Of a stretch of DNA of 57,465 bases, positions 2,207 through 50,040 are shown one piece after another. The stretch spans positions 1 to 57,465 of the forward strand of contig CAXMRQ010000082.1 in the NCBI GenBank assembly GCA_964196115.1. Direction: 5' to 3'. Position 1 is the first letter of the stretch; each line of letters begins with the position of its first letter. Under the pieces are notes generated by a model. It saw only the letters and a list, made by a program, of their open reading frames with translations, did no database searches and had not been told where the DNA came from. The position numbers and the translations under genes are program-made. Source of the DNA: an uncultured Gammaproteobacteria bacterium (GTDB lineage Bacteria > Pseudomonadota > Gammaproteobacteria > GCA-001735895).

Positions 2207-2345
2207 ACGTGGAGCTTAACCACGATGCACCCAGGTGAGGGATGAAGCAGCGACTGAATAAACCGGTCATTCCGGCTTCCGAGCCGGAATGACCGCCAGG
2301 GACGGTGGAAATGCGACTGGGGCTGTGGGAACAGCCCTAGCCCTT
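2207..2345 (+). ncRNA. Candidate GGA-rich small RNA or structured leader (CsrB/Rsm-like)
   Basis: Six GGA motifs in ~130 nt, including hairpin CTGGGGCTGT-GGGA-ACAGCCCTAG (2317-2340) and ACCG-CCAGGGA-CGGT; AT-rich promoter-like region just upstream. Confidence 0.35.
2264..2295. repeat. REP-like perfect hairpin (GTC-tagged REP type)
   Basis: CGGTCATTCCGGCT-TCCG-AGCCGGAATGACCG, 14-bp perfect stem; reverse complement matches the unit at 49869-49893 with one mismatch. Confidence 0.75.
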
Positions 2346-2555
2346 TGAACAGTGGTTACTGTATATTCTGAAGTCTCGTTTAAGTGAATACCGGCGGTCC
2401 GACGCTTCGGTCGAATCCGGTATGACAAAGTCAGAATTTGAATGATCAAGCCACAAATTTTTTCAAAAAGTATCGGCAATCACTTACCTGCTATTTGATA
2501 TAAATCCGAACTGTTCAGCCTTCTCAATCGATAATCTTTCATACAAAACCATAAA

Positions 2556-3740
2556 ATGAATCAAAAACCAGATTTCGCCAGCCAGGTATTTCTTAAACAA
2601 CATATCCGCGACACCCTCGCCTTTTACCAACCCCGGGTTTATGACAAAAACGGTGGATTTTTTCAGCACTTTCGTGACGACGGTACTGTCTACGATCCGT
2701 CAACGCGCCATCTGGTAAGCAGTACACGTTTCGTTTTCAATTACGCGATGGCCGCGCGGTATTTTGATAATAACGATTATAAAAACTGGGCGCGCCATGG
2801 CTTGAATTATCTACAGCAATACCATTATCAGCAAGAATCCGGCGGCTATGCCTGGTTACGTGATCAGGAAACAATCCTCGACGCGACCAATCACTGCTAC
2901 GGCCTTGCTTTTGTCATTGTCGCAGGCGCGACCGCACTGCTGGCCGGTATCGAAGAAGGGCGAGCGACATTAGAAAATGCCTGGAAATTAATGGAATCAT
3001 ACTTCTGGGATGCCAAATTCGGGCTATATGCCGACGAAGCCAACACGGATTTCAGCGTGGTTGACCCTTACCGAGGTCAAAACGCCAATATGCACGCCTG
3101 CGAGGCGATGTTATGGGCCTTCGAAGCGACACAGGAATCGCGCTACCTCAAGCGCGCAGCCATCCTGGCAGACAATATTACTCGTAGGCAGGCGGCTAAG
3201 GCGGATGGGCTAATCTGGGAACACTATGATACTAACTGGGAAATCGACTGGGACTACAATAAAGGCGATCCTAAACATTTATTCCGCCCCTGGGGATTCC
3301 AGCCCGGTCATCAAACCGAGTGGGCCAAGTTACTGCTGATTTTACATCGACACCAGCCAGCCGACTGGTATTTACCGCGGGCCAGAGAATTATTCGATAC
3401 AGCAATGGAGAAATCCTGGGACGATGATTACGGTGGCATTAGTTACGGTTTCGCCCCGGATAGCAGCGTGTGTGATGATGACAAATATTTCTGGGTACAG
3501 GCGGAAAGTTTCGCTGCCGCCGCGTTACTCGCACAGGCCACAGGTGAGCAGGTTTACCATGACTGGTATCAGCGAATCTGGCAATACAGCTGGCAACACA
3601 TGGTCGATCATCAATATGGTGCCTGGTATCGAATTCTGACGCGTGATAATCGCAAGTATGATGACAAAAAATCGCCCGCCGGAAAGACTGATTACCACAC
3701 CATGGGTGCCTGCTACGAGGTCCTGCGTTCAAAGAAATAA
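2556..3740 (+). CDS. AGE family epimerase/isomerase, probably D-mannose isomerase
   Basis: RHLVSSTRFVFNYA, YRGQNANMH, QPGHQTEW and GKTDYHTMGAC motifs of the YihS/mannose isomerase branch. Confidence 0.85.
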   Translation: MNQKPDFASQVFLKQHIRDTLAFYQPRVYDKNGGFFQHFRDDGTVYDPSTRHLVSSTRFVFNYAMAARYFDNNDYKNWARHGLNYLQQYHYQQESGGYAWLRDQETILDATNHCYGLAFVIVAGATALLAGIEEGRATLENAWKLMESYFWDAKFGLYADEANTDFSVVDPYRGQNANMHACEAMLWAFEATQESRYLKRAAILADNITRRQAAKADGLIWEHYDTNWEIDWDYNKGDPKHLFRPWGFQPGHQTEWAKLLLILHRHQPADWYLPRARELFDTAMEKSWDDDYGGISYGFAPDSSVCDDDKYFWVQAESFAAAALLAQATGEQVYHDWYQRIWQYSWQHMVDHQYGAWYRILTRDNRKYDDKKSPAGKTDYHTMGACYEVLRSKK

Positions 3741-3960
3741 ATTATCGAGTGTTTCGTTGTTCGCCCAGGCCTTAAGCTTCTATGGGCGAACCCCACAATT
3801 CGAACGGCACGGGATAAAATTTTATGAAAGACATCTCAGGAATCTCTAACATATACCTCCGTGAGTCTGTAGAGGAGGATAAGTGAATAAAGGGGGGTGT
3901 TAGGAATGGACCGATCATTCCCGCCACATTTACCAGATCCTCGCGAGGCCGTCTTACGCC

Positions 3961-4638
3961 TCAATGCATGGTAGTTCTAACTTCTATTTTTTCCTCACCA
4001 TCAGGAACAGCGCTACCCGCTTCCGCCCGGGCTTCTTCGATGTCGGTGTTTTCGGGGGCTTCTTCGAGTGCATCGACATTAAGGACTGGTTCCCTGGCGT
4101 CGGCCAAGTCGCCGGGATTGCCTGATGACCTCGAAGCATCGGTTTTAGCGGTGTCAAACTCCGAACTTACAGAGGCTGGTTCACCGGCATTAGCCTCGGT
4201 GAATGGCTCGGCATGCTCGTCTACCGTTTCCACAGGCGTTGCCTGCGTCACCCCCTGTTCGACAAACGAATCATCATCAACCTTATTCGTGACATTTGTT
4301 TCATCGTCTAGAGTTATCGATACCATGCCCTGATGTTGTTCCAGAAGACTGGTAAAAGTCTTGCTATCACCCAGGGATTGCGCGCCCTCCGCCAGATGCT
4401 GATAAACCTTGACATAGTTTTGCGTCAAATTGTTCACTAGTTCCGAGGTTTTGTTGAAGTGTTGATTGACATTGGACTTGTAACTGTCCAGTTCCTCCCG
4501 GGTCACCTCCAGTTCAGTTTTGACTTTAGCGGCCTGTTTTACCGATGGTGCGAGCAGCCGATAAGCCAGTGCGCCGATCATTGCACCGGCGACCAGTGAG
4601 ATAATGCCAATTTGCCAAACCGAGTATACGTGTTCCAT
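3961..4638 (-). CDS. YhcB/ZapG (DUF1043) family membrane protein with long acidic tail
   Basis: N-terminal TM, coiled coil, V-x-QHF-x-KTSELVNNLTQNYVKVYQHLAEGA motif. Confidence 0.8.
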   Translation of the reverse strand: MEHVYSVWQIGIISLVAGAMIGALAYRLLAPSVKQAAKVKTELEVTREELDSYKSNVNQHFNKTSELVNNLTQNYVKVYQHLAEGAQSLGDSKTFTSLLEQHQGMVSITLDDETNVTNKVDDDSFVEQGVTQATPVETVDEHAEPFTEANAGEPASVSSEFDTAKTDASRSSGNPGDLADAREPVLNVDALEEAPENTDIEEARAEAGSAVPDGEEKIEVRTTMH

Positions 4639-4920
4639 AGCGCCTCTTCGTTATCGATGGTTCGAATATGGTAGTCGATTATAAGTTAACCGCTGCTGCA
4701 ATCATATAAATGTAGACCGCAAAATCAGGCGCCAGTTACCTAAACTCATGCGGCTCGGAAACAGATTTATCGTTATCTTGATTCTTGCGTTCCGACAGTG
4801 AGTCTATGGACGAGGCAGATCTCGTATATCAGGGGTCAGACTCATTGATCTGCAAAAAGAAGCAGTCCACTAAAACCTGTTTAAAACCGGGCGCAGAAAA
4901 TAACTGGCTAAATCCAATTA

Positions 4921-5325: not shown

Positions 5326-5467
5326 ATACATTTTCTCACGATACGTATTCTCCGAGTATAGACCTTCCAGGAGATGAATATGCAATAACTCACCCTGTTT
5401 AGCCAAAAGCCACTGGGGTCGCGTCTTGAACTGTAAATTCAAAATGCCATTGTGCATCAGACCGAGT

Positions 5468-6454: not shown

Positions 6455-6477
6455 GCGCTGTAGGTTTACAATTTAGT

Positions 6478-7170: not shown

Positions 7171-7270
7171 TCATTTTCCTTTGTTTAGTTATGATCCTGG
7201 AGGTTCATTTCGTGATTCTATCGATATCAATATTTAATGCAGAGAATACCATTTGTAAATTAACGCTGCC

Positions 7271-7504
7271 TAGGAGGCTGACCGAGAATAGGGGTCGTAG
7301 TGATATGTACAGGATGTACGGTAATAGAACACCAACAGTAGGTGCCTCCAGGCAATGCAGGAGCAATTGTCGAGGGAAAGCTGGATTTAGGCAGATTTTT
7401 TCATTTTTGGGGCAAATAGTTACTCATATTCAGCGATAAAATGGGGAAATCTGCCTAGATCCAGCTTTTCCGCAGTAGGCCTTCTATTCTCGGTCAGCCT
7501 CCTA
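7271..7504. mobile_element. MITE family 1, subfamily A, copy carrying the 70-bp GGA cassette
   Basis: 24-bp perfect inverted repeat GCCTAGGAGGCTGACCGAGAATAG (7268-7291 / 7484-7507), TA/CTAG at both ends, long internal palindrome, homologous copies at 33773 and 40717. Confidence 0.88.
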
Positions 7505-7517
7505 GGCCTTAAAGCAA

Positions 7518-7654: not shown

Positions 7655-8614
7655 ATGGCCGATGCAATTTGCCTTGGTGAACTGCTGATAGATTTCGTGC
7701 CGACTGTAACTGGGACGGATTTAATCTCCGCCCCGGCGTTTAAGAAAGCGGCGGGCGGTGCTCCCGGCAATGTCGCCGTCGGGCTTCAGCAGCTAGGCAT
7801 CAATACCGCCTTCATTGGCAAGGTCGGTGATGACCCGTTTGGACATTTCCTCAGCAAAACCCTGTCAGACAGCGGTATCGACGTTAGTTCAATCCGCTAT
7901 AGCGCAGAAGCGCGCACGGCCCTCGCCTTCGTTTCACTGAAGGCCGATGGTGATCGTGAATTTATGTTTTATCGTCACCCCAGCGCTGATATGTTGCTGA
8001 CCGAGGACGAAATCGATGTCGATGCAATCAAGGCGGCAAAACTGTTACATTTCGGATCAATTAGCCTGATCGGCCAACCGTCGCGTGACGCCAGCCTGTA
8101 TGCAGTAGAGACAGCTCGTAAAGCTGGTTGCCAGATTTCCTACGATCCAAACCTGCGCCTGGATCTTTGGCCGGGTGAAGCGGCCGCCCACGAGGGACTG
8201 CTGCTGGGCCTGTCACTGGCTAATATCGTTAAAATCAGCGAAGACGAGGCTGAATTTCTGAGCAGTTTTAGCGATCTCGATAAGGCCGTGAACAAGCTTT
8301 GGCACGATGACCTGCAACTTATGGTGGTGACGCGTGGAAAATATGGTTGCCGTTATTATACTGACAATTTTCGTGGCGAAGTCGATGGCTTTAAAGTCGA
8401 GGCAGTGGATACAACCGGTGCCGGTGACGGTTTTGTCGCGGGCTTATTACAGGGCCTGCTGAAACATCCCGAAACACTTAACAATCCAGAACAACTCGGA
8501 GAACTGTGCACTTTTGCCAACGCAGTCGGGGCTATAACCACCACCAGACGCGGTGCTATCCCTGCCCTACCCAGGTTCGAAGAGGTAGAGAAATTTATCA
8601 ATGCCAGCCAATAA
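7655..8614 (+). CDS. PfkB family carbohydrate kinase, probably fructokinase
   Basis: GELLIDF, GGAPGNVA, REFMFYRHPSADM, YDPNLR, DTTGAGDGF. Confidence 0.9.
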   Translation: MADAICLGELLIDFVPTVTGTDLISAPAFKKAAGGAPGNVAVGLQQLGINTAFIGKVGDDPFGHFLSKTLSDSGIDVSSIRYSAEARTALAFVSLKADGDREFMFYRHPSADMLLTEDEIDVDAIKAAKLLHFGSISLIGQPSRDASLYAVETARKAGCQISYDPNLRLDLWPGEAAAHEGLLLGLSLANIVKISEDEAEFLSSFSDLDKAVNKLWHDDLQLMVVTRGKYGCRYYTDNFRGEVDGFKVEAVDTTGAGDGFVAGLLQGLLKHPETLNNPEQLGELCTFANAVGAITTTRRGAIPALPRFEEVEKFINASQ

Positions 8615-8640
8615 TCAACTCAATATAAGCAAATAACATC

Positions 8641-11585
<2,945 letters not shown>

Positions 11586-11590
11586 AAACT

Positions 11591-13246
11591 ATGCATAACA
11601 GCTCTTTAACCCGGTCACCAGCCTGGTTCGCTTTAGTAGAACATCAGTGTCTGCTGGAAAAAATGCAGCTGCGCGATTTGTTCAACGAGGATCCCGCGCG
11701 AGCCGAAAAATTTTCACTGAAGTTCGGCAATCTATTGCTCGATTATTCGAAGAACAGAATCATCGACGAAACGATGGAGCTGCTAGTATCACTCGCGCAG
11801 GAAACCGGTGTCGAGCAGCTGCGTGAGCAGATGTTCGCAGGCGAAAAGATAAACGTCACCGAGCAACGAGCCGTATTACACACTGCCTTGCGAAACCGAT
11901 CCAATGATGCCGTTTTGGTCGATGGCGCAGACGTGATGCCAGCGGTTAATGCAGTGCTGGCACAAATGCGCGAATTTAGCGATGCAGTGCGCGACGGTAA
12001 CTGGCGCGGCTATAACGGTGAGCGCATTCAAGACGTAGTGAACATCGGCATCGGTGGTTCCGACCTGGGTCCACTGATGGTATGCGAGGCACTAAAAGCT
12101 TATCAGCACCCCGAACTGAGGATGCATTTCGTCTCTAACGTCGATGGTACCCACATCAGCGAAACGCTTAAAAAACTGCGCCCGCAATCTACCCTGTTCA
12201 TCGTCGCCTCCAAGACCTTTTCCACACAGGAAACCCTGACCAATGCGCATTCTGCACGAGACTGGTTTCTACAACAGGTCGGCGATGAAAGTGCTATCGC
12301 CAGCCATTTTGTCGCTGTCTCGACTAACACCGAACAGGTTGCCGCATTCGGAATCGACACCGCCAACATGTTCGGATTCTGGGACTGGGTCGGCGGTCGC
12401 TATTCGCTATGGTCGGCGATCGGTTTACCGATTGCGCTCGCCATCGGCATGGATCGATTTGAACAGCTGCTAAGTGGTGCGCACGACATGGACCGGCATT
12501 TCCAGAAGGCACCGTTAGAACAAAACATGCCGGTATTACTGGCGCTGATCGGTATCTGGTATCACAATTTTTTCGGCGCAGAGAGTTACGCAGTCGAGCC
12601 TTATGATCAATATTTACATCGGTTCCCGGCTTATTTGCAACAGCTCGATATGGAAAGTAATGGTAAATCGGTGACTCGTGATAGCGAGTTGATTGACGAC
12701 TATACTACCGGAGCGGTGCTTTGGGGTGAGCCCGGCACCAATGGTCAACACGCGTTTTTCCAGCTACTGCATCAGGGCACAAGACTGGTACCTGTAGATT
12801 TTCTGCTACCAATCCAGAGCCACAACCCGATAGGCAATCATCATACTTTGCTAATGGCGAATTGTTTCGCCCAATCCGAGGCTTTGATGCGAGGCAAGAC
12901 AGAAGCCGAAGCAAAGGCCGAACTTAGTGCTCAAAGCCTGTCCGGCGAGGCGCTCAAGCAACTATTGCCACACAAAATATTTTCCGGTAACCGGCCCAGC
13001 AACACGCTACTGTTTCAGCAACTTAATCCACACACGCTGGGCATGTTGATCGCGCTATACGAACACAAAGTGTTTGTGCAGGGAATAATCTGGAACATCA
13101 ATTCGTTCGATCAATGGGGCGTAGAGCTCGGCAAGCAACTCGCCAGCACTATCGCCAGCGAATTACAGGGCGATGTAAATTCCACATCCCATGACTCATC
13201 AACTAATACATTGATTAACGCGAGCAAAGGCTTAGACACCCTTTAG
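11591..13246 (+). CDS. pgi: Glucose-6-phosphate isomerase
   Basis: [33 protein letters not shown]. Confidence 0.97.
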
Positions 13247-13292
13247 TAATGGCCCATATATTGCAATTCTCTAGAACCACCAATAATTAACC

Positions 13293-14855
13293 ATGCCCCA
13301 TATTTTAATGATCGCAGCAGAAAACGACGCCTTACCGGACGGTAAGGTAGGTGGTATCGGCGATGTCGTACGCGATCTACCGAGAGCACTGGTAAAACGT
13401 GACTGCACTATATCGGTGCTGACTCCCTCCTATGGTGCGCTTCACGAGGTACCCGGGGCCGAAAAGATAAGCGATATCAAGGTCAATTTTGCCGGAGCGA
13501 CTCAGATACTTGAGTTATATCGGGTAATCGCTGGTGAAACAAATCCCGGCGTACATCATTACGTCATCGACCATCCGTTATTTAGCACTTGTGGTAAGGG
13601 AAAAATTTACTGTGACGATCCTGCGGGTCGTCCCTTTGCTACCGACGCCAGTAAGTTTGCCCTGTTTTGCCAGGCCGCAGCCAGTGCCATCGTTAAATCC
13701 GCTTTCGCAAAAGTCGATGTGATACACCTGCACGATTGGCATGCAGCATTTTTACTCATTCTGCGCGCTTACGATCCACCCTATAAAGCGTTAAAGTCGA
13801 TCCGCTGCGCCTACACCATCCACAATCTCGCATTGCAGGGAATTCGCCCATTTTCCGGTGACGAGTCCTCGCTGCAACAATGGTATCCCGGCCTGAAGTA
13901 TAAAAGCGCGCTACTCGCTGACCCCAGGTGGCCAGACTGTGTTAATCCGATGGCCGCTGGCATACGGTTGGCCGATGCAGTACACACTGTGTCGCCGTCT
14001 TATGCCGAAGAAATTTTGCGCCCCAGCGAGGTCGCCACCCTCGGTCAATACGGTGGTGAAGGTCTTGAGCAAGACCTGCAGGTTGCGCAGAGCGCTAAGC
14101 GGCTGTTTGGTATTCTCAACGGCTGTGAATATCCGAAAAAATCCACCCTCGTGATAAGCAATTGGGGGAAATCACTGGATTTGATGCAGGACCAGCTACT
14201 GCTGATGGCCGCAGCCAATTCGACTCTCTCCAGCGCACTGTTTATTGCGCAGAAACGTCTTTCTGAGCTAAGCAGAAGACGTCCCAAATTTATACTCACC
14301 AGTGTCGGACGTATCACCGAGCAAAAAGTCCGGCTGCTACGACAGGCTACGAGTTCAGGACGCCCTGCCCTGGAAGCCATATTGCAAAAACTCGGCAACA
14401 ACGGTGTGCTAATCCTGGTCGGAAGCGGTGACACGGACTATGAGCAATTTTTAAGCGAAACCGCAGCACGACATAAAAACTTCATATTCCTGCGCGGCTA
14501 CTCCGAAGAATTGGTGAAGGCACTTTACAGCATGGGTGATCTATTTCTGATGCCAAGTTCTTTCGAGCCTTGCGGCATTAGCCAGATGCTGGCCATGCGA
14601 TCAGGCCAGCCTTGCCTGGTGCACCATGTCGGTGGACTACGCGATACGGTTGAGGATAATGTCACTGGTTTTGCTTTCACTGGTACAAACCCGACTGAGC
14701 AGGCCGATTATCTGCTCGCTACTTTGCAGCGTGCGCTGGTGGCAAAGAGTAAACCTGATAAATGGCAGACTATGCGCAAAAAAGCATCGGCAAAGCGTTT
14801 TAAATGGGCGGATAGCATCGACGCTTATCTGAAACAGCTCTATCAACTCATCTAA
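13293..14855 (+). CDS. glgA: Glycogen synthase (GT5)
   Basis: KVGGIGDV, HLHDWH, TIHNL, MPSSFEPCGISQM, VGGLRDTV. Confidence 0.92.
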   Translation: MPHILMIAAENDALPDGKVGGIGDVVRDLPRALVKRDCTISVLTPSYGALHEVPGAEKISDIKVNFAGATQILELYRVIAGETNPGVHHYVIDHPLFSTCGKGKIYCDDPAGRPFATDASKFALFCQAAASAIVKSAFAKVDVIHLHDWHAAFLLILRAYDPPYKALKSIRCAYTIHNLALQGIRPFSGDESSLQQWYPGLKYKSALLADPRWPDCVNPMAAGIRLADAVHTVSPSYAEEILRPSEVATLGQYGGEGLEQDLQVAQSAKRLFGILNGCEYPKKSTLVISNWGKSLDLMQDQLLLMAAANSTLSSALFIAQKRLSELSRRRPKFILTSVGRITEQKVRLLRQATSSGRPALEAILQKLGNNGVLILVGSGDTDYEQFLSETAARHKNFIFLRGYSEELVKALYSMGDLFLMPSSFEPCGISQMLAMRSGQPCLVHHVGGLRDTVEDNVTGFAFTGTNPTEQADYLLATLQRALVAKSKPDKWQTMRKKASAKRFKWADSIDAYLKQLYQLI

Positions 14856-14866
14856 CTCTACTGATT

Positions 14867-17032
14867 ATGGCGACACTGAAAGATAGTATCGAGACCATCG
14901 CTCGTGGCATCAATCGCGACCCATTTAAAGTTCTGGGACCGCGTATCGCAAGAAAAAACTGGGTGATTCGCAGTTGGCAGCCACAGGCCCGCGCGGTCGA
15001 GTTGGTCACTCCTGACGATAAACCGTTGGCGAAAATGAAACGCATCCATGCCGACGGGTTGTTCGAGGCACGCTTACCTCTGCCAATGGTCGATTATCGG
15101 CTACGCCTGTTCGAGCACGAGCACAGTCGCGTCATCGACGACCCCTACCGTTTTCCATCGCCGCTTGGCGAACTCGACCGTCACCTGATGCGAGAAGGCG
15201 CGCACCTTAAGCTCGACGATAAGCTCGGCGCCAATCTGATAGAAATCGCCGAGGTTAGCGGCGTGCATTTCGCGGTATGGGCACCGAATGCCTGTCGGGT
15301 CAGTGTGGTCGGACCTTTCAACGACTGGGATGGCCGCCGCCACCCGATGCGACTGCATCCCAATAACGGCGTGTGGGATTTATTTATTCCCGGCATGGGC
15401 TCGGGGGAACTTTACAAGTTCGAACTGCTCGATGTCGAAGAGCGCCTATTACCCCTCAAAGCCGACCCGTTTGCGCGACGCATGGAGTCGCCGCCAGGCA
15501 ATGCCTCGATAGTGCATTATGACGATTACCAGTGGCAGGACGATAGCTGGATATCGAAGCGAAGCGAGAAAAATGCGCTCGATAGGCCGATGGCAACCTA
15601 TGAGGTCCATCTTGGATCCTGGCGACGAGGTACCGATAACAATTTCTTAAGCTACCGTGATCTGGCATCCGAACTGGTCTCGTATGTACAGGATATGGGT
15701 TATACCCATATCGAATTACTGCCGGTTACCGAATACCCATTTGACGGCTCGTGGGGTTATCAGCCGGTCGGTCTGTTTGCTCCAACCTGGCGCTTCGGCA
15801 ACCCGGAAGATTTCAAATACCTGGTCGACGCCTGCCACCAGCAGGGGATTGGTGTAATTATGGACTGGGTTCCAGCGCATTTCCCGCGTGACGAATTTGG
15901 TCTGGGCCTGTTCGACGGTAGCCATTTGTACGAACATGCCGATCCGCGCCAGGGTGCGCACCAGGACTGGGGCACGCTGATTTTCAATTTCGGTAGCGCC
16001 GAAGTGGTGAACTATCTGCTCGCCAGCGCCCTGTTCTGGATCGAGGAATACCACATCGATGCTCTACGGGTCGATGCCGTATCTTCTATGTTGTATCTGG
16101 ACTACTCGCGCGAACCCGGTGAGTGGCTACCCAATCGACACGGTGGTAACGAAAATCTCGAAGCGGTGGCTTTTTTACGCCGTATGAACGAACTGGTGCA
16201 TGCCCGTGGAGCTGTCACCATCGCCGAAGAATCCACCGCCTGGCCGCAGGTCTCCGCACCGATATATAGCGGTGGACTGGGTTTTAGCTACAAGTGGAAT
16301 ATGGGCTGGATGAACGACAGCCTGGCATTTTTCAAGGAAGACCCGGTAAATAGAAGCTATCACCAGGATAAACTCACCTTCGGATTACTGTACGCATTTA
16401 ATGAAAACTTTATCCTGCCGCTATCACACGATGAGGTTGTTCACGGTAAGGGTTCGTTGAAGGGGCGCATGCCCGGGGGCGACTGGCAGGCTTTTGCTAA
16501 TTTGCGCCTTTATTACACTTTTATGTACGGTCACCCGGGCAAAAAGCTATTATTCATGGGCGGTGAACTCGCTCAGGAACGCGAATGGAATCACTCAACA
16601 TCGCTCGACTGGCATTTGCTAGACCTTCCTTTGCACGCTGGTGTACAGCAGTTGGTAAGAGACCTTAACCGGCTTTACCGGACAACTCCGGCACTTTATG
16701 AAATAGATTTTGATGCTGGCGGTTTCGAATGGATTGACTGTAGCGACAACCATCAGGGCGTGATTTCATTTTTGCGACGCGGCAAAAATCCGCAGGAATT
16801 AATCGTCGTCGTTTGCAATATGACGCCCGTGGTACGGCATAATTACCGCATTGGAGTACCAACCGCAGGTCGGTATCAAGAGCGACTTAATAGCGATGCC
16901 AGCGCTTACGGCGGCAGTGGCGTCGGTAATCTTGGGGCAGTTGTATCTGATCAGATCCGCGCCCACGACCGTGAATATTCTCTAAGCTTAAACCTGCCTC
17001 CACTTGCCGCTTTAATTTTACAACCAGATTAA
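14867..17032 (+). CDS. glgB: 1,4-alpha-glucan branching enzyme
   Basis: FAVWAPNA, YEVHLGSW, SWGYQP, DWVPAHFP, RVDAV, AEEST, LSHDEVVHGK. Confidence 0.97.
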   Translation: MATLKDSIETIARGINRDPFKVLGPRIARKNWVIRSWQPQARAVELVTPDDKPLAKMKRIHADGLFEARLPLPMVDYRLRLFEHEHSRVIDDPYRFPSPLGELDRHLMREGAHLKLDDKLGANLIEIAEVSGVHFAVWAPNACRVSVVGPFNDWDGRRHPMRLHPNNGVWDLFIPGMGSGELYKFELLDVEERLLPLKADPFARRMESPPGNASIVHYDDYQWQDDSWISKRSEKNALDRPMATYEVHLGSWRRGTDNNFLSYRDLASELVSYVQDMGYTHIELLPVTEYPFDGSWGYQPVGLFAPTWRFGNPEDFKYLVDACHQQGIGVIMDWVPAHFPRDEFGLGLFDGSHLYEHADPRQGAHQDWGTLIFNFGSAEVVNYLLASALFWIEEYHIDALRVDAVSSMLYLDYSREPGEWLPNRHGGNENLEAVAFLRRMNELVHARGAVTIAEESTAWPQVSAPIYSGGLGFSYKWNMGWMNDSLAFFKEDPVNRSYHQDKLTFGLLYAFNENFILPLSHDEVVHGKGSLKGRMPGGDWQAFANLRLYYTFMYGHPGKKLLFMGGELAQEREWNHSTSLDWHLLDLPLHAGVQQLVRDLNRLYRTTPALYEIDFDAGGFEWIDCSDNHQGVISFLRRGKNPQELIVVVCNMTPVVRHNYRIGVPTAGRYQERLNSDASAYGGSGVGNLGAVVSDQIRAHDREYSLSLNLPPLAALILQPD

Positions 17033-17057
17033 ACTTTAAACTAAAAAGCCAATATTT

Positions 17058-19565: not shown

Positions 19566-19599
19566 TCCAACTGCCGCGTCTGGCTGACACTCAACTGCA

Positions 19600-23959: not shown

Positions 23960-24217
23960 TTGAACCTGGGAAACGCAGTTGGATCACGAAAGTCCACACA
24001 CCAAAAGTAGGCGCTTTTAAGCGAGCTCTTGACGCACCGGAGTGCCGCATCACTAGAAAACCAAATAACTTCTCATCACCAATAAGGTGGCTACGAATTA
24101 TTTGACAGGCACTATGCGCCAATATGACGTGCATGGATGCACTAATGCAGTGTTTGCAGGATGCAAAGGAGCTGCCTTACACGTCTTTTTCGCGCCCAAC
24201 TGCGTTTCCCAGTTTAA
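23960..24217. mobile_element. MITE family 2 with GGA hairpins and one 23-bp micro-unit
   Basis: 17-bp perfect inverted repeat CTGGGAAACGCAGTTGG (23966-23982 / 24196-24212), extendable imperfectly to TTGAA/TTAA ends; non-coding; between convergent genes. Confidence 0.8.
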
Positions 24218-32001: not shown

Positions 32002-32797
32002 GAGTTTGGTCAGATAATGCTGATTTGGGTAATGCCGAATTAGCCAGGCAGACGAAGTTCTGTAAGGTTAAATTCTCGGCGCGTAGGCGTTTGTCGATCT
32101 GACAGATGTCAAACGATTCCAGGGGTAGAACAGACTTCAGTGAATTCGAAATAGTTTTACGACGTTGGCTGAACGCGACCTGCACAATCTCTGAAAATCT
32201 GGCGAAGTCTTTTACGCCAGCTATTGAAGTAGCGTGCGGCGTCAATCTAATGATAGCAGAATCAACTTTTGGTGGTGGTGTGAAACAACCGGGTGGTACG
32301 TCAAATAAATACTGGCAGTGGCAAAAATACTGAATCATCACTGACAGGCGACCATAACTCCGTGAACCGGCTTCGGAAACTATACGTTTGGCAACTTCTT
32401 TTTGCACCATAAAATGCATATCCTGAATGTGGCTGATCGAATTCATCAGATGAAACATTAACGGTGTAGAGATATTGTAAGGCAGGTTACCGACAATTCT
32501 TAAGTTCTCCGAGCAGAGTAAACTGTCAATGTCAAACTTCAGGATGTCGGTGTTAATCAGATTTAACTTGCCGCTCTGAGATGCCTGTTGTTGTAAAACT
32601 GGAATTAAATCGCGATCCAGTTCGATCGCCGTAAATTGTTTGCAATGTTTGAGAAGAGGTAGAGTCAAGGCCCCCCGACCGGGGCCGATTTCGAGCAGAT
32701 TGTCATCCTGTTGTGGACTGATCGCTCGAATAATTCTGTCAATTATATTCCTGTCATGCAAAAAATGCTGACCAAAGCGTTTACGAGCTCGTTGCAT
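31994..32797 (-). CDS. rsmA: 16S rRNA dimethyladenosine transferase
   Basis: RKRFGQHFL, EIGPGRG, GNLPYNIST, MVQKEVA, PPPKVDS. Confidence 0.97.
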   Translation of the reverse strand: MQRARKRFGQHFLHDRNIIDRIIRAISPQQDDNLLEIGPGRGALTLPLLKHCKQFTAIELDRDLIPVLQQQASQSGKLNLINTDILKFDIDSLLCSENLRIVGNLPYNISTPLMFHLMNSISHIQDMHFMVQKEVAKRIVSEAGSRSYGRLSVMIQYFCHCQYLFDVPPGCFTPPPKVDSAIIRLTPHATSIAGVKDFARFSEIVQVAFSQRRKTISNSLKSVLPLESFDICQIDKRLRAENLTLQNFVCLANSALPKSALSDQTHD

Positions 32798-33836
32798 TTC
32801 TTGTCACACACTCGGTCTGGAATATAGCTGAACTTATCGCAGTCAAAAGACTCCCGGTATCGGCACGGGAACTTCCGGCGAGATCCAGGGCGGTGCCATG
32901 ATCTACTGATGTGCGGATGATTGGTAACCCGAGCGTGGTATTGATCGCACGGTGAAATCCTGCGTGTTTCAATACTGGTAGTCCCTGGTCGTGATACATT
33001 GCCAGAACCGCATCGGCATCGATCAAATTTTGTGGCGTGAATACAGTATCAGCCGGAAATGGGCCGCTGATATTCAGACCTTTTTGTTGCATAATTCCTA
33101 TAGCCGGGGATATTTGCTCGATCTCTTCGCGCCCCAGGTATCCATTCTCCCCTGCATGGGGGTTGAGACCGCAGACTTTTATATGTGGTCGCCGCAATCC
33201 GAATTTTAATTGCAGGTCATGGTTTAGAATATCGAGGATCTGAATAATCAATTCAGTGGTGATTGCTTCGGCTACCTGCCGTAGGGGTAAATGCGTGGTC
33301 GCGAGCGCGACTCTGAGTTTGTCTGCAGCCAATAACATGACCGGTTTGACGCCACCACAGATATCAGCTAAAAATTCGGTGTGACCACTAAATGCTATAC
33401 CTGCCTGGTTAATGATGTCCTTTTGCACCGGAGCGGTAACCATTGCATCGAATTCCTTCTCCAGACAACCGTTACAAGCGCGTTTTAATGTTTCAAGCAC
33501 ATAGCTGGCGTTCTCCTGATCCAGGATTCCGGCTTTACAGGGCGTTGCTAGCGGTATATGTAATATTTCAAGCTGAGCTTTTCCAGAGGACCTGGCCCCG
33601 GGCTGGTATTCGACAAAATTAAGGTCGGGATTTAATGCCTTGTTGCGTGACTCTATTAATTCACGATCCCCGATTATTATCAGTCTCGCGTTATAGCTAC
33701 AGGCATCAATAGCGGCAATAATATCTGGCCCGATGCCTGCCGGTTCGCCTGACGTTATTGCGATGCAGGGGCAAGGAGGCTGACCGAGAATAGGGGTCGT
33801 AGCGAGGGAAAGCTGGTTTGAGGTAGGTTTTTTCAT
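32781..33836 (-). CDS. pdxA: 4-hydroxythreonine-4-phosphate dehydrogenase; first 21 codons derive from a MITE
   Basis: GEPAGIGP, GHTEFLA, GLNPHAGE, MYHDQGL, RTSVDHGTA. Confidence 0.96.
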   Translation of the reverse strand: MKKPTSNQLSLATTPILGQPPCPCIAITSGEPAGIGPDIIAAIDACSYNARLIIIGDRELIESRNKALNPDLNFVEYQPGARSSGKAQLEILHIPLATPCKAGILDQENASYVLETLKRACNGCLEKEFDAMVTAPVQKDIINQAGIAFSGHTEFLADICGGVKPVMLLAADKLRVALATTHLPLRQVAEAITTELIIQILDILNHDLQLKFGLRRPHIKVCGLNPHAGENGYLGREEIEQISPAIGIMQQKGLNISGPFPADTVFTPQNLIDADAVLAMYHDQGLPVLKHAGFHRAINTTLGLPIIRTSVDHGTALDLAGSSRADTGSLLTAISSAIFQTECVTRNATSS

Positions 33837-33936
33837 TTTTGAGGCAAAAAGTTACTCATATTTAACGATAAAATGGAGAAATCTGCCCAAATCCAGCTTT
33901 TCCGCAGTAGACCTTCTATTCTTGGTCAGCCTCCTA
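33773..33936. mobile_element. MITE family 1, subfamily A, empty copy (164 bp, no GGA cassette)
   Basis: Ends AGGAGGCTGACCGAGAATAG / CTATTCTTGGTCAGCCTCCTA; colinear with 7271-7504 except for a clean 70-bp gap. Confidence 0.9.
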
Positions 33937-39878: not shown

Positions 39879-40715
39879 ATGAAAGAGATCGAAAGTGTCA
39901 AGGAAAGCGGCGGATACCTGAATCGTTATATTCATGACTCGAAGACCTGCCGTTGTGAAATGACATTTTCGGTTTATTTGCCGCCGCAGGCTGAAACCGA
40001 AAAAGTACCCGCTTTATACTGGCTTTCAGGGCTTACCTGTACCGATGACAATGCACGTACCAAGGCCGGCATGCAGCGCTTCGCTGCGAAGCATGGCATA
40101 GCCGTCGTATTTCCTGACACCAGCCCGCGCGGTGAACAGGTTGATGATAAACCTGATCGTTACGATCTGGGACAGGGCGCCGGGTTTTACGTTAACGCGA
40201 CGCAGCAACCCTGGTCTGAGCACTATCAAATGTACGATTATGTCGTTACTGAGTTGCCCGAGGTGATCGAACAAAATCTTCCTTTAATGCCGGGTGTTAA
40301 GTCCATCAGCGGCCATTCTATGGGTGGGCACGGGGCTTTAATTTGCGCGCTAAGAAATCCACGGATGTTCCGCTCGGTTTCTGCTTTTGCGCCGATTACT
40401 AATCCAGTCGCCTGCGGTTGGGGACAGGGCTGCTTCGATCTTTATCTGGGGAATAACAGGTCCGACTGGCAAGCTTACGATGCTACCTGCCTGATTGAGA
40501 ACGGGGCCAGGGTAGCGGATATCCTGATCGATCAGGGTGATGGTGATGAATTCTTACATGAAGGCCAGTTACAGCCGGATAATCTGCAGGCGGCCTGCGA
40601 AGCGCAGGGCCAACCCTGTACCATCCGCATGCAGCCAGGCTACGATCATAGCTATCATTTTATCGCCAGTTTCATCGACGCGCATTTTGACTACCACGCC
40701 AAATACCTGAAATAG
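39879..40715 (+). CDS. fghA: S-formylglutathione hydrolase
   Basis: WLSGLTC, PDTSPRG, GHSMGGHGA, GYDHSY. Confidence 0.96.
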   Translation: MKEIESVKESGGYLNRYIHDSKTCRCEMTFSVYLPPQAETEKVPALYWLSGLTCTDDNARTKAGMQRFAAKHGIAVVFPDTSPRGEQVDDKPDRYDLGQGAGFYVNATQQPWSEHYQMYDYVVTELPEVIEQNLPLMPGVKSISGHSMGGHGALICALRNPRMFRSVSAFAPITNPVACGWGQGCFDLYLGNNRSDWQAYDATCLIENGARVADILIDQGDGDEFLHEGQLQPDNLQAACEAQGQPCTIRMQPGYDHSYHFIASFIDAHFDYHAKYLK

Positions 40716-40716
40716 C

Positions 40717-40977
40717 CAGGAGTCTGTCGGACTTAGGTGGTCGTCACGATATGTACAGGATGTACGGTAGTAGAACACCAACAGTAGGCGCTTTTAGGCG
40801 CCAACAGTAGGTGCCCTTAGGCAATGCAGGAGCAATTGTCGAGGGAAAGACCGGTTTGAGTCAGATTTTGAGTTCTTTTAAGGAAAATAGTAGTTCTATT
40901 TGACGAAAAAGAACTCAAAATATGGCCAAATCCGGCTTTTCCGCAGCAGACCACAGCCTAAGTCCGACAGGCTCCTA
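40717..40977. mobile_element. MITE family 1, subfamily B, copy carrying the 93-bp GGA cassette
   Basis: 23-bp inverted repeat with 2 mismatches (GCCAGGAGTCTGTCGGACTTAGG / CCTAAGTCCGACAGGCTCCTAGC); same internal architecture as subfamily A. Confidence 0.88.
40776..40821 (+). repeat. Two tandem 23-bp micro-units
   Basis: CACCAACAGTAGGCGCTTTTAGG then CGCCAACAGTAGGTGCCCTTAGG; single copies at 7330-7352 and 23999-24021. Confidence 0.9.
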
Positions 40978-40982
40978 GCCTC

Positions 40983-43494: not shown

Positions 43495-43498
43495 TTAC

Positions 43499-44317: not shown

Positions 44318-44332
44318 AAAATATTTATCTGG

Positions 44333-46809: not shown

Positions 46810-46860
46810 TGCCCGATTGTAGCGATAAGTTTTATCTGGATCATGAGACAGCTGGCGAGC

Positions 46861-48729: not shown

Positions 48730-48845
48730 ACAATCGCCGAAATTTTAGATGCGGTATTATGCTGTTTTTGCAGGTAAGTTGCGGTATATTTTTAACTATT
48801 AATCCGGCAATTGATATCGTCGAGTTAACAGTAAAGGGTAATCTC

Positions 48846-49490
48846 ATGTGCGGACGATTTTTTCTAGATACTAACGTCAAAGATATCATGGAGCATTATA
48901 ATGCGCCGCCCCCCGATATCTTTAGCCCTCGATATAATATTGCGCCGACCACACCAGTACTCGCGCGTACCGATAAGGGAATCACTTTGTTTCGCTGGGG
49001 ATTGATCCCCGCCTGGGCAAAAGACCTGTCGATGGGTAATCGGATGTTTAATGCGCGCGCCGAGACAGTGGCAGAAAAACCTTCGTTTCGTAATGCCTAC
49101 CGCCGCCGTCGCTGTTTGATTGCCGCCAGTGGATACTACGAATGGCGCGTCGAAAACGGTCGCAAGCAGCCCTATTGCTGCCATATCGATCACGGTCTGT
49201 TTTCAATGGCCGGTATCTGGGAGCACTGGCAGGATGCGAATGGTAATGAAATCCAGTCCTGCGCCATTATTACTACCGAAGCAAGGCAGGCGATTTCAGA
49301 AATTCATCAGCGTATGCCGGTGCATATAGCCAGCGATGATTACGCGAAATGGCTCGACTGTAGCTCGGAAAAAACCAGTGATGCGGATGATTTGCTGGCT
49401 AATACCCTGCCGAATTATCAGTATTATGCGGTGAGTACCGCGGTTAATAATGCTCGTAATGAGGGTAGGGATTTGATTCGGGGGATTTAG
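48846..49490 (+). CDS. SRAP (YedK/HMCES) abasic-site-protecting protein
   Basis: Starts MCGRF (catalytic Cys2, so true start is 48846); RYNIAPT, WGLIP, NARAE, IHQRMP. Confidence 0.94.
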   Translation: MCGRFFLDTNVKDIMEHYNAPPPDIFSPRYNIAPTTPVLARTDKGITLFRWGLIPAWAKDLSMGNRMFNARAETVAEKPSFRNAYRRRRCLIAASGYYEWRVENGRKQPYCCHIDHGLFSMAGIWEHWQDANGNEIQSCAIITTEARQAISEIHQRMPVHIASDDYAKWLDCSSEKTSDADDLLANTLPNYQYYAVSTAVNNARNEGRDLIRGI

Positions 49491-49529
49491 TTGGGCTCCT
49501 GGTTGAGTGGGGTTTGCTGGGGTTTATTA

Positions 49530-50040
49530 ATTTGCCAGGGTTTCGCACACTAAGTCTCTCATTACTCCGTAGTTAACTCAGGAGTAAGTGCGCGAGTCTC
49601 TTTTCTCTGCAGCGAGAAAAGTAACCAAAAGCGCCGCCCCGAACAAGCCCTTATTTCGTCAAAATAGCGCCCATATCAGGGTCGGCCCACACGCGCTCCC
49701 GGCACGAGCGGGCCTAAATTGGCATCCCTGCCAATTTACCCTAATCTGAACACTATTTTGCCGAGGGCTTGAAAGGGGGAAAGAAGAAAAACTCACTGTC
49801 ATACCGGACTTGATCCGGTATCCATTGAAAAGCGACCTCCGGGGCCTGCAGCAAATGCTATCCAATGGATTCCGGCTCGGAGGCCGGAATGACGGTTCAT
49901 TTCCAGGGAGCCGTAGGCCACACGATTGGGCTGCCTTTTTCTTGGTTACTTCTTTTGGGCAAGCAAAAGAAGCAACTCGCGCACTTACTCATAAATAACT
50001 ACAGAGTAAAGAGAGGCTTAGTGTGCGAAACCCGGCAAAT
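49530..50040. mobile_element. ~510-bp nested palindromic element with 66-68-bp terminal inverted arms
   Basis: 49530-49597 is the imperfect reverse complement of 49975-50040; inner hairpin domain 49637-49778; nested REP doublet; non-coding, between convergent genes. Confidence 0.8.
49797..49894. repeat. Inverted REP doublet (GTC-tagged type)
   Basis: TGTCATACCGGACTTGATCCGGTATCCATTG ... CAATGGATTCCGGCTCGGAGGCCGGAATGACG. Confidence 0.8.

What the first reader, a model, noticed from the sequence alone, without database searches (positions are those of the whole stretch)
2207..49740. Loop-GGA hairpins recur in every repeat family: dispersed CsrA/RsmA-site delivery?
Seen: GGA in hairpin loops at 2317-2340, 7307-7369, 24129-24167, 40753-40838 and (minus strand) TAAATTGGCA-GGGA-TGCCAATTTA at 49715-49738. 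Two of these elements bracket the glycogen operon in the sense orientation. Known: CsrB repeats are CAGGA(U/A/C)G, the CsrA SELEX consensus is RUACARGGAUGU, and CsrA represses glycogen synthesis in E. coli. Inference: mobile repeats distribute CsrA sites into UTRs as a diffuse sponge, or exploit CsrA for their own control. Alternatively the loop is the recognition signal of an unknown mobilising enzyme.
Basis: partly seen in the sequence, partly recalled or inferred. Interest (0 to 1): 0.7.

Follow-up and report, generated by a model that had tools for sequence, protein, structure and literature searches.

The report
Self-homing twin-hairpin GGA-loop mobile module
The GGA-loop hairpins are real, but they recur because a tiny (about 48-base) two-hairpin mobile DNA module has inserted itself precisely into several larger repeat families and into its own GGA loop, so the loops look more like a mobility and target signal than a way of delivering CsrA-binding sites.

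Summary
Observation confirmed: all five hairpins fold with GGA/GGGA in the loop. Of 24 high-copy hairpin types in the genome, 9 have GGA/TCC loops, against 7.4% of low-copy hairpins.

The hairpins at 7307-7369, 24129-24167 and 40753-40838 belong to a 47-51-nt module. HP1 has a covarying stem and a CA-N-GGA-N-G loop. HP2 has closing GC pairs, an AGGA loop and a bulged A. The genome holds at least 118 copies.

Of these, 53 have an exact empty-site paralogue, so the module is a precise insertion with no target duplication. Type I modules insert at A^GG(G)A, including the AGGA loop of other modules; nests occur in G010 and G164 and tandem arrays in G083.

The module occurs in 30 of 150 sampled families of the class and matches no Rfam 15 family.

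The CsrA reading is weak:
- the motif fits the consensus and two csrA genes exist;
- module presence does not track csrA (27/30 vs 103/120);
- the GGA strand is mostly antisense to neighbouring genes (8 vs 26);
- a dedicated CsrB-like candidate exists.

Presence does track RAYT-like Y1 transposases (24/30 vs 40/120). The scan noted similar GGA twin-hairpin repeats in other genomes.

The parts
7267..7510 (+). Family-1 MITE copy 'B'. Terminal inverted repeats are about 7267-7291 and 7485-7510. It lies 145 nt upstream of pfkB, the first gene of the glycogen operon.
   Evidence: Sequence read. Repeat families. 50-87 blastn hits per 20-nt bin in the genome.
7301..7370 (+). Type I twin-hairpin module (HP1 7307-7319, HP2 7351-7371 with its AGGA loop at 7359-7362). 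One 23-nt GTAG hairpin unit (about 7331-7353) is inserted between the two hairpins. The module boundary is ambiguous by 3 nt.
   Evidence: R1 match at 7303-7374, E = 0.0014. The joined flanks (11+11 nt) occur exactly at 3 other places in the genome. Fold.
33774..33935 (+). Family-1 MITE copy 'D' without any module. It shows the empty target GTAGCGA^GGGAAAG between 33805 and 33806.
   Evidence: 97% identical to B over 7272-7303 and 89% over 7371-7510, but lacking 7303-7370.
40712..40980 (+). Family-1 MITE copy 'E', downstream of the esterase gene. It carries the type I module at 40747-40839 (HP1 40753-40765, HP2 about 40820-40840) with two 23-nt units inside (about 40777-40822).
   Evidence: R1 match at 40749-40843, E = 9e-4. 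Empty-site paralogues at 3 places. Fold z = -4.71.
23966..24213 (+). Family-2 MITE copy 'C' (TIR CTGGGAAACGCAGTTGG), directly downstream of malQ.
   Evidence: 38 copies of this end were examined.
24127..24177 (+). Divergent ('type III') twin-hairpin module: HP1 24129-24142 (UGGA loop), HP2 24146-24176 with an inner AGGAU loop and an AGGAG internal loop. It is a present/absent cassette at the MITE's subterminal site. Boundaries are good to within 2 nt.
   Evidence: Fold. In one search the same site is empty, or holds the 22-23-nt unit (11 of 38), or holds this module (7 of 38 by the strict pattern, a few more variants by eye). R1 did not report it at E <= 0.01.
24080..24099 (-). Unoccupied site for the type II ('c') module: AATTCGTAGC^CACCTTATTG on the minus strand, between 24089 and 24090.
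   Evidence: 11 exact empty-site paralogues for 'c' modules, which insert between ..CGTAG(T) and CACCTTATTGG.
23998..24023 (+). 22-23-nt GTAG-tagged hairpin unit (REP-like), itself a precise insertion.
   Evidence: family D5. 180 genome matches to CCAA[AC]AGTAGG[CT]GC. 0-4 tandem copies inside modules.
49534..50037 (.). Repeat 'F', with about 62-nt terminal inverted repeats. It is the host of the fifth hairpin.
   Evidence: read by eye. 11-34 blastn hits per bin.
49715..49738 (-). Host hairpin UAAAUUGGCA-GGGA-UGCCAAUUUA. It is not part of an inserted module.
   Evidence: Related copies with UGGA / CUGGAA loops.
49684..49714 (-). Hairpin GGCCCGCUCGUGCC-GGGA-GCGCGUGUGGGCC. It is a diverged, unoccupied paralogue of a site that elsewhere carries a type I module inserted just 5' of GGGA.
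   Evidence: ccacccgcgcc^[48-nt module]^gggagcgcgtg, a single possible offset, with 4 exact empty copies. The window copy was read.
2317..2340 (+). 10-bp hairpin with a GGGA loop in a low-copy repeat (2260-2345). No module.
   Evidence: Only 3-7 blastn hits.

Best explanation
The GGA-loop hairpins are the two conserved hairpins of a 47-51-nt non-coding mobile module.

Anatomy:
- HP1 has a 4-8-bp stem of free sequence and a CA-(N)-GGA-(N)-G loop.
- HP2 has a 7-11-bp stem closed by two G-C pairs, an AGGA loop and a bulged A.
- The module has no terminal inverted repeats and makes no target duplication.

Behaviour. It inserts precisely and in a fixed orientation into the backbones of several MITE families, into other hairpins and into itself. 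That nesting is why GGA loops seem to recur 'in every repeat family'.

Role of the loops. For the commonest form (type I) the target is A^GG(G)A, usually a hairpin loop, and this includes the AGGA loop of HP2. Each insertion rebuilds ...CGA^GGA and adds two new targets, which gives Russian-doll nests and tandem arrays. The invariant loops are therefore best read as the signal and target of the mobilising machinery.

What is shown and what is inferred:
- Shown: the modules are discrete present/absent insertions; the stems covary; the type I target is A^GGA.
- Inferred: the machinery acts on single-stranded hairpins.
- Speculative: the enzyme is a RAYT-like Y1 (HUH) transposase.

CsrA may bind the loops wherever the GGA strand is transcribed. 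That would be a side effect, not the reason the loops are kept.
For: Structure. 21 diverse copies align to two helices, and 10 of 12 pairs show compensatory changes. 91.2% of cells are paired against 70.2% in shuffles (0 of 500 reach the observed value) and 27-44% when partners are slid.

Copy number. The covariance model R1 finds at least 118 copies in the genome (150 of 1366 candidates were scored).

Precise insertion. 53 of 118 modules have an exact 11+11-nt empty-site paralogue. Some allow only one offset, so there is no duplication. Window copy D is an empty site for B and E. The family-2 subterminal site is empty, or holds a 22-23-nt unit, or holds the type III module.

Target. The 3' flank of type I starts with G in 57 of 60 copies and GG in 47 of 60. 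Modules sit inside GCA^GGAGC of another module's HP2 in the own genome (C41, C62), in G010 (L036) and, four to five levels deep, in G164 (L048). G083 has about 8 tandem 47-nt units.

Conservation. The loops stay CA.GGA.G and GCAGGAGC while the stems change, across 30 of 150 families of the class.

Patchy copy number. 0-39 copies within the genus, with 16 of 24 genomes positive.

Co-occurrence. PF01797 is found in 28/30 module-positive against 69/120 module-negative genomes (OR 10, p = 1e-4; for genomes of at least 2.3 Mb, p = 0.010). Homologues of a 305-aa RAYT-like protein are found in 24/30 against 40/120 (OR 8, p = 6e-6; at least 2.3 Mb, p = 0.004). In G160 a module starts about 17 nt after that gene's stop codon.

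Folding strand. There are 65 G.T against 14 A.C stem mismatches on the GGA strand, though many are inherited rather than independent.
Against: - No enzyme is tied to the module. Only 1 of 25 RAYT-like loci (flanks of 600-1,500 nt) has an adjacent module, and none of the own genome's six PF01797 hits has one.
- Two module-positive genomes (G038, G150) have no PF01797 match.
- Types II and III keep the GGA loops but do not insert at GGA. For them the 'target' argument does not explain loop conservation, and a trans-acting loop binder is still needed. That binder could in principle be CsrA.
- The strand hints conflict. G.T wobbles favour folding of the GGA strand. But the GGA strand lies on the C-rich strand in 52 loci against 28, which is not what the IS200/IS605 model predicts if the GGA strand is the active one.
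- Precise deletion rather than insertion could produce some of the 'empty' sites.
- Gene calls were crude (ORFs of at least 90-150 aa). R1 E-values are rough, and candidate caps make all copy numbers lower bounds.
Confidence: 0.6

Rival explanations
1. CsrA-site delivery or diffuse sponge. The modules are kept because, once transcribed, their two GGA hairpins clamp CsrA dimers. They would either bring neighbouring genes such as the glycogen operon under Csr control or jointly titrate CsrA.
For: - HP1 loops AUGGAU / AGGAU fit the ANGGAN hexaloop and the CAGGA(U/A/C)G repeats. The 22-nt spacing lies within the 10-63 nt bridging range (PMC7652899, passages).
- There are two intact csrA genes.
- B and C flank the glycogen operon with GGA on the sense strand.
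- Types II and III conserve the loops without using GGA as a target.
- G.T outnumbers A.C in the stems, which suits a single-stranded GGA strand.
- In G111 and G166 a module lies 200 and 650 nt downstream of csrA.
Against: - There is no association with csrA: 27/30 against 103/120, p = 0.77; restricted to genomes of at least 2.3 Mb, 27/30 against 67/73.
- G160 (100% complete, 9 modules), G136 and G162 show no csrA.
- Between co-directional genes the GGA strand is antisense in 26 of 34 loci (p = 0.003). This holds whether the genes are on the leading or the lagging strand.
- The conserved linker, the bulged A and the long HP2 stem are not needed for CsrA binding. The review says very stable stems may be a disadvantage.
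- A dedicated CsrB-like RNA candidate exists: 18 GGA in 320 nt plus a terminator.
- G006 has no module upstream of pfkB.
- No promoter-like site was found around B or C.
Confidence: 0.12
2. Dual use. The module is a selfish mobile element whose loops are mobility signals. Because they mimic CsrA sites (and AGGAG mimics a Shine-Dalgarno sequence), sense-strand copies disturb mRNAs. Selection then shapes where copies survive and in which orientation, and occasionally co-opts a copy.
For: - All the evidence for mobility.
- The significant antisense bias (8 against 26).
- The consensus fit.
Against: - The orientation bias may belong to the host MITE rather than to the GGA strand. 'e'-type modules sit inverted inside family-1 MITEs and show the opposite trend (6 sense, 2 antisense).
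- Family-1 and family-2 MITEs often carry GGA modules on both strands.
- No expression data with strand information exist.
Confidence: 0.15
3. An RNA-level element of another kind. It could be a structured RNA bound by a different protein, or one that moves through an RNA intermediate (reverse splicing or retro-insertion into GGA loops), as has been discussed for very small dispersed repeats of cyanobacteria (recalled).
For: - The covarying two-hairpin structure and the G.T excess on one strand.
- Insertion exactly within loops.
- Repeat-bearing contigs are present in one metatranscriptome (weak).
Against: - No reverse transcriptase or ribozyme link was tested or seen.
- No Rfam family matches.
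- The metatranscriptome contigs carry no strand information and may be DNA carry-over.
Confidence: 0.08
4. No function at all. GGA is conserved only because the copies are recent descendants of one founder.
For: Within each subfamily the copies are about 90-100% identical throughout. For example GTACAGGATGTAC occurs exactly 43 times.
Against: - The loops stay fixed while the stems change by compensatory substitutions across subfamilies.
- The loops also stay fixed across 30 families of the class.
- Rare loop variants exist but are few: GCAGTAGC in L046, and AAGA / GGG.
Confidence: 0.05

Closest known systems
REP / BIME / REPIN elements and their RAYT (TnpA-REP) Y1 transposases (Nunvar 2010 PMC2817692, listing only; Bertels & Rainey 2011 PMC3116915, passages; Ton-Hoang 2012 PMC3333891, abstract; Di Nocera 2013 PMC3733652, abstract and passages)
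   Same: - Short non-coding hairpin repeats in high copy number.
- Mosaic, cassette-like arrangements, as in BIMEs.
- No coding capacity, and thought to be mobilised in trans by a single-strand HUH enzyme.
- Module presence co-occurs with RAYT-like genes.
- The 22-23-nt unit nested in the modules does carry a GTAG tag.
   Different: - The module has two unlike hairpins in direct order, not an inverted REP pair.
- It has no GTAG or CGTC tag.
- It has conserved GGA loops and inserts site-specifically at A^GGA, including into itself.
- It is not found flanking RAYT genes as a REPtron would be (1 of 25 loci).
IS200/IS605-family ends and their miniature derivatives (features as summarised in the PMC3333891 abstract; other details recalled)
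   Same: - No terminal inverted repeats and no target duplication.
- A subterminal hairpin near each end, one with an extrahelical base.
- Insertion next to a short specific sequence in one orientation.
- Re-usable targets, which allow tandem copies.
   Different: - Only 47-51 nt long.
- No transposase lies in cis anywhere.
- The target lies inside a hairpin loop.
- The active strand and any link to replication direction are unresolved.
CsrB / CsrC / RsmX-Y-Z sponge RNAs and CsrA sites in mRNA leaders (PMC7652899, passages)
   Same: - GGA in short hairpin loops in an ANGGAN / CAGGAUG context.
- Pairs of sites at bridging distance.
   Different: - Not a transcription unit with its own promoter and terminator.
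- Dispersed as DNA insertions, mostly antisense to neighbouring genes.
- Not linked to csrA presence.
- The genome has a separate CsrB-like candidate at G000:C35:14311-14590.
Small dispersed repeats (SDR) of heterocystous cyanobacteria (Elhai et al. 2008, Genome Res 18:1484). The paper is not held. Its title and reference were seen in PMC3116915 ref. 43. Its content is recalled.
   Same: Very small repeats that are precisely present or absent and nested inside larger repeats.
   Different: - SDRs are about 21-27 nt (recalled), closer to the 22-23-nt unit seen here.
- The GGA twin-hairpin architecture and self-homing were, as far as I recall, not described for them.
IS elements that target REP hairpins (Tobes & Pareja 2006 PMC1525189, abstract; IS1397 into palindromic units, recalled)
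   Same: Hairpin repeats serve as specific insertion targets.
   Different: Those are full-length IS elements with their own transposase. Here the inserted element is itself a 48-nt hairpin module, and its target is its own loop motif.

Membership tests
CsrA-binding RNA / Csr-Rsm sponge | GGA presented in a hairpin loop in an ANGGAN or CAGGA(U/A/C)G context | tested here: met
   HP1 loops are A(U)GGAU and HP2 has an AGGA loop. Consensus taken from PMC7652899.
CsrA-binding RNA / Csr-Rsm sponge | Two or more sites on one RNA, 10-63 nt apart | tested here: met
   About 22 nt lie between the two GGA motifs when no unit is inserted.
CsrA-binding RNA / Csr-Rsm sponge | The GGA strand is transcribed | tested here: inconclusive
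   8 sense against 26 antisense loci between co-directional genes. Only unstranded, low-depth metatranscriptome contigs were available.
CsrA-binding RNA / Csr-Rsm sponge | Own promoter and terminator (an sRNA gene) | tested here: not met
   The modules are 47-51-nt cassettes inside MITEs. No promoter-like or terminator-like site was found around B and C. No match to RsmY, RsmZ or CsrB above the gathering score lies in a module.
CsrA-binding RNA / Csr-Rsm sponge | Occurs only where csrA/rsmA is present | tested here: not met
   27/30 against 103/120, p = 0.77. G136, G160 and G162 have modules but no PF02599 match.
CsrA-binding RNA / Csr-Rsm sponge | CsrA binding that depends on GGA | not testable with these tools
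   Needs EMSA or CLIP.
MITE | Terminal inverted repeats and a target-site duplication | tested here: not met
   The host elements B, C, D, E and F have TIRs. The module itself has neither TIRs nor a duplication (single-offset cases).
REP / REPIN with RAYT | GTAG (or CGTC) tag next to a palindrome; inverted REP doublet | tested here: not met
   The module flanks show no common GTAG. The two hairpins are unlike and in direct order. Only the nested 22-23-nt unit is GTAG-tagged.
REP / REPIN with RAYT | Repeats flank the RAYT gene (REPtron) | tested here: not met
   1 of 25 RAYT-like loci has a module (G160). None lies beside the own genome's PF01797 genes.
REP / REPIN with RAYT | Co-occurrence with a RAYT-type Y1 transposase | tested here: met
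   24/30 against 40/120 (p = 6e-6; at least 2.3 Mb, p = 0.004). PF01797: 28/30 against 69/120. This is correlation only.
IS200/IS605-like single-strand elements | No TIR, no duplication, a hairpin near each end, fixed orientation next to a short specific target | tested here: met
   plus the nests.
IS200/IS605-like single-strand elements | Active strand on the lagging-strand template | tested here: inconclusive
   The GGA strand lies on the C-rich strand in 52 loci against 28. But the G.T excess favours folding of the GGA strand, and the bias follows gene direction.
Any Rfam 15 family | Covariance-model match | tested here: not met
   No relevant match at E <= 1 in the window or in 20 loci with intact modules.

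The most novel reading that the evidence does not exclude
A previously undescribed class of very small site-specific mobile element. It is a 48-nt twin-hairpin module, present in about a fifth of the gammaproteobacterial families sampled. It homes into A^GGA hairpin loops, which is the very motif CsrA reads. It therefore multiplies by invading its own loop and any GGA-loop hairpin, probably using a domesticated RAYT-like HUH enzyme. As a by-product it would create, duplicate or split CsrA-type sites across genomes.
Probability: 0.35. Interest if true: 0.75.

Novelty: new variant of a known kind. Interest (0 to 1): 0.6.

Why it matters
- Recurring 'CsrA-like' GGA hairpins in dispersed repeats, which this scan has also noted in other genomes, would get a simple mechanistic explanation. 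They are the signature and the target of a tiny self-homing mobile module, not evidence of Csr regulation. That warns against calling CsrA sponges or regulons from GGA-loop motifs alone.
- The element has clean empty and filled sites, nests and tandem arrays. It offers a tractable system for asking how 50-nt DNA can move site-specifically, and whether RAYT-like 'domesticated' transposases do this.
- If CsrA also binds the loops, the element would be a generator of Csr-network variation.

Tried and rejected
- Rfam. The gathering and E-value scans of the window and of 20 module loci found no family.
- Exact 25-nt module pattern in genome contigs: 0 hits. The LptD protein in genome contigs gave no confirmed relative.
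- Sequencing runs. Holders are marine-sediment and ice metagenomes, with one metatranscriptome holding a 0.06 share of the words. Laying the reads gave only low-depth, unstranded contigs, mostly 90-95% alike, over the MITE bins. This is no usable evidence of transcription, and parts without cover mean nothing.
- RAYT adjacency. The own genome's six PF01797 hits have no module nearby. 24 of 25 RAYT-like loci have none. GGA-loop hairpins seen by eye just after the C162 and C225 genes were not matched by R1.
- PF01797 within the genus is uninformative, as it is present in 24 of 24 genomes.
- Promoter and terminator scans around B and C found nothing relevant.
- Orthologous glycogen-operon leaders. 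The species of the genus are too diverged (66-70% DNA identity). Only G006 was comparable, and synteny differs in G177.
- Candidate 'sponge-like' GGA clusters at C31 and C207 lie in coding sequence and were dropped.
- A fuzzy empty-site search for the type III module timed out and was replaced by reading the 38 family-2 ends.
- Elhai 2008 could not be read.
- Literature searches listed no paper linking CsrA with MITE/REP repeats or describing a GGA twin-hairpin self-inserting module. Supplements were not consulted.
- My mid-session note of '10 of 24' hairpin types was a miscount. The figure is 9 of 24.

Full report
**Setting.**
The window is the whole contig C82 of a 3.58-Mb, 229-contig genome (97.7% complete). 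Gene order is gammaproteobacterial, and a nine-gene glycogen operon lies at 7655-23930 on the + strand (pfkB, glgC, pgm, pgi, glgA, glgB, glgP, glgX, malQ). Run holders are marine-sediment and ice metagenomes. The organism could not be named.

**1. The observation.**
The five sites carry the stated sequences and fold with GGA or GGGA in the loop.

I listed every perfect 5-bp-stem hairpin in the genome with a 3-8-nt loop. Of the 24 distinct types with at least 8 copies, 9 have GGA/TCC in the loop. The figure is 7.4% for the 20,284 types with at most 2 copies (p = 3e-5), and GGA is the top loop trinucleotide.

The nine types share the form NNNCA-(U)GGA-UGNNN or GC-AGGA-GC with different, complementary stems. 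They are one superfamily rather than nine independent events.

**2. What the hairpins belong to.**
The intergenic repeats are MITE-like elements with terminal inverted repeats, present in tens of copies:
- family 1: B (7267-7510), D (33774-33935) and E (40712-40980);
- family 2: C (23966-24213);
- F (49534-50037).

D equals B without 7303-7370, the segment that holds both GGA hairpins.

Aligning all genome copies on the hairpins shows a constant 47-51-nt unit:
- HP1: a variable 4-8-bp stem with loop CA-(N)-GGA-(N)-G;
- a linker of about 11 nt, GGUAGUAGAGC in 'type I' and GUAUGC... in 'type II';
- HP2: a 7-11-bp stem closed by GC/GC, with an AGGA loop and a bulged A on the 3' arm.

Twenty-one diverse copies give 12 consensus pairs, 10 of them with compensatory changes. 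91.2% of cells are paired, against 70.2% in shuffles (0 of 500 reach the observed value) and 27-44% for slid partners.

A covariance model (R1) finds at least 118 copies in this genome. Only 150 of 1366 candidates were scored. The two window hits are at 7303-7374 and 40749-40843. They score low because one or two 23-nt GTAG hairpin units are inserted between HP1 and HP2.

The hairpins at 24129-24167 form a diverged 'type III' module that R1 did not report.

No Rfam 15 family matches the window or 20 loci with intact modules.

**3. The module is a precise insertion.**
For 53 of 118 modules, the 11 nt on each side, once joined, occur exactly elsewhere in the genome (up to 23 copies). In several cases only one offset is possible, so there is no target duplication. 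An example is ccacccgcgcc^[48 nt]^gggagcgcgtg.

The family-2 subterminal site was read in 38 copies. It is empty, or holds the 22-23-nt unit (11 copies), or holds the type III module (7 by strict pattern, plus a few variants).

The window shows every state:
- filled sites in B, E and C;
- empty sites in D (33805^33806) and in C for the type II module (24089^24090);
- an unoccupied, diverged target hairpin in F (49684-49714, minus strand).

Family-1 MITEs can carry one module near each end in the same direction and a third, inverted, in the central loop. An example is C75:4703(+), 4811(-), 4903(+).

**4. The GGA loop is the type I target.**
The 3' flank of type I modules begins with G in 57 of 60 copies and GG in 47 of 60, though many share one host site. 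Distinct host sites read GCA^GGAGC, CGA^GGGAAAG, GCC^GGGAGCG, GCA^GGACGG, CCA^GGAAGC, GCA^GGGATGC and GTA^GATTTAT.

Several of these are hairpin loops. Some are the AGGA loop of another module's HP2. This is seen in the own genome (C41, C62), in G010 (L036) and in G164. In G164, four to five 5' halves are stacked on the left and the matching GGAGCAGTTACCGA halves on the right (L048).

Each insertion rebuilds ...CGA^GGA. That explains tandem arrays at 47-49-nt spacing: C52; G015:C211; and about 8 units in G083.

Types II and III keep the loops but insert at other sites.

**5. Distribution.**
R1 matches (E <= 0.001) occur in 16 of 24 other genomes of the genus, with 0-39 copies, and in 2 of 16 genomes of other families.

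In a sample of one genome per family of the class (at least 90% complete), 30 of 150 have matches at E <= 1e-4, with 1-35 copies. Only 39 candidates were scored per genome.

The loop sequences are kept while the stems differ. This patchy, copy-number-variable pattern is what mobile DNA shows.

**6. Tests of the CsrA reading.**

*For:*
- The motif and the spacing fit the consensus (PMC7652899, passages).
- Two intact csrA genes are present.
- No RsmY, RsmZ or CsrB match reaches the gathering score.

*Against:*
- (a) Module presence does not track csrA: 27/30 against 103/120, p = 0.77. G136, G160 and G162 have modules but no PF02599 match. G160 is 100% complete and has 9 modules.
- (b) I used crude ORF-based gene calls (3196 ORFs, 86% coding). 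Loci between co-directional genes of at least 150 aa have the GGA strand sense in 8 and antisense in 26 (p = 0.003). The split is 5:18 where the genes are on the leading strand and 2:6 where they are on the lagging strand. By subtype, sense:antisense is a 2:12, b 0:5, c 1:8 and other type I 3:9. Other type II copies give 6:2, because 'e' copies sit inverted in family-1 MITEs. The bias may therefore belong to the host MITE, and many MITEs carry GGA hairpins on both strands.
- (c) The weak CsrB hit (19.6 bits) at G000:C35:14341-14580 is a convincing dedicated sponge candidate. It has 18 GGA against 2 TCC in 320 nt, is intergenic, and ends in a hairpin plus a T-run.
- (d) In G006, the one comparable relative, the 384-nt region upstream of pfkB has no module.
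- (e) Expression could not be judged.

**7. Who moves it?**
The module has no TIRs, makes no duplication, has a hairpin near each end, inserts in a fixed orientation next to a short motif, and re-uses its target. This is the logic of single-strand HUH (Y1) transposition (features as in the PMC3333891 abstract; further details recalled).

*Co-occurrence:*
- PF01797 is present in 28/30 module-positive against 69/120 module-negative genomes (OR 10.3, p = 1e-4). For genomes of at least 2.3 Mb the figures are 28/30 against 51/73 (p = 0.010).
- Homologues (E <= 1e-20) of a 305-aa RAYT-like protein are present in 24/30 against 40/120 (OR 8, p = 6e-6). For genomes of at least 2.3 Mb the figures are 24/30 against 36/73 (p = 0.004).
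- These tallies include the unpublished genomes G141 and G063, both module-negative. Removing them changes only the negative column, by at most 2.

*Adjacency:* In G160 a module starts about 17 nt after that gene's stop codon. None of the other 24 RAYT-like loci has one.

*Strand:* The hints conflict. There are 65 G.T against 14 A.C stem mismatches on the GGA strand (107 unique copies; many are inherited). But the GGA strand lies on the C-rich strand in 52 loci against 28.

The enzyme therefore remains unidentified.

**8. Verdict.**
The CsrA interpretation rests on resemblance and fails its own phyletic test.

The element is closest to REP/REPIN, IS200/IS605-type and SDR-type small repeats. 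It differs in its twin GGA-loop architecture and in homing to its own loop.

I found no description of it in Rfam or in five literature searches. Earlier notes of this scan report similar GGA twin-hairpin repeats in other genomes; I did not check them.

Noticed in passing
G000:C35:14311-14590 (+), outside the window: A strong candidate for the genome's dedicated CsrB/Rsm-type sponge RNA. It has 18 GGA against 2 TCC in 320 nt, many in AAGGAU / CAGGGAUG hairpins. It is intergenic and ends in a hairpin plus a T-run. The Rfam CsrB score is only 19.6 bits (gathering score 71).
   Followed up: partly
window 23998-24023, about 7331-7353 and about 40777-40822: A 22-23-nt GTAG-tagged hairpin unit (CCAACAGTAGGCGCTTT(T)AGGCG, 180 pattern matches in the genome). 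It is itself precisely present or absent, sits at TA^AT / CA^AT sites inside modules and MITEs, and occurs as 0-4 tandem copies.
   Followed up: partly
L048 (G164:C9, about 13800-14000): A Russian-doll nest. Four to five modules are each inserted in the AGGA loop of the previous one, with the 5' halves stacked on the left and the GGAGCAGTTACCGA halves on the right.
   Followed up: partly
L050 (G083:C1:4134695-4135025): A tandem array of about 8 module units with a 47-nt period in a complete genome. That genome also has 22 PF01797 matches.
   Followed up: partly
G111:C56 and G166:C41: A module lies 200 nt (G111, that genome's only match) and 650 nt (G166) downstream of csrA, on the opposite strand. 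This may be chance or a hot spot.
   Followed up: no
window 33774-33935: MITE copy D lies between pdxA and surA. The longest pdxA reading frame (32781-33836) runs into it, so the true pdxA start is probably further downstream.
   Followed up: no
window 2266-2295 and 49866-49893: A 12-14-bp hairpin, GGTCATTCCGGC...GCCGGAATGACC, recurs in two otherwise different repeats. The second copy has a UCGGAG loop.
   Followed up: no
window 7267-7272 / 7505-7510 and the flanks: Family-1 MITE ends read CYAG|GAG...CTC|CTAG. This suggests a CTAG-type target or duplication, as in some IS5-family elements (recalled). No full-length parent IS was sought.
   Followed up: no
G000:C187:19844-20680: One RAYT-like gene is flanked by inverted repeats (GGGTCAGGTCTAG ... 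CTAGACCTGACCC). This matches the 'RAYTs flanked by TIRs' class mentioned in the PMC3733652 abstract.
   Followed up: no
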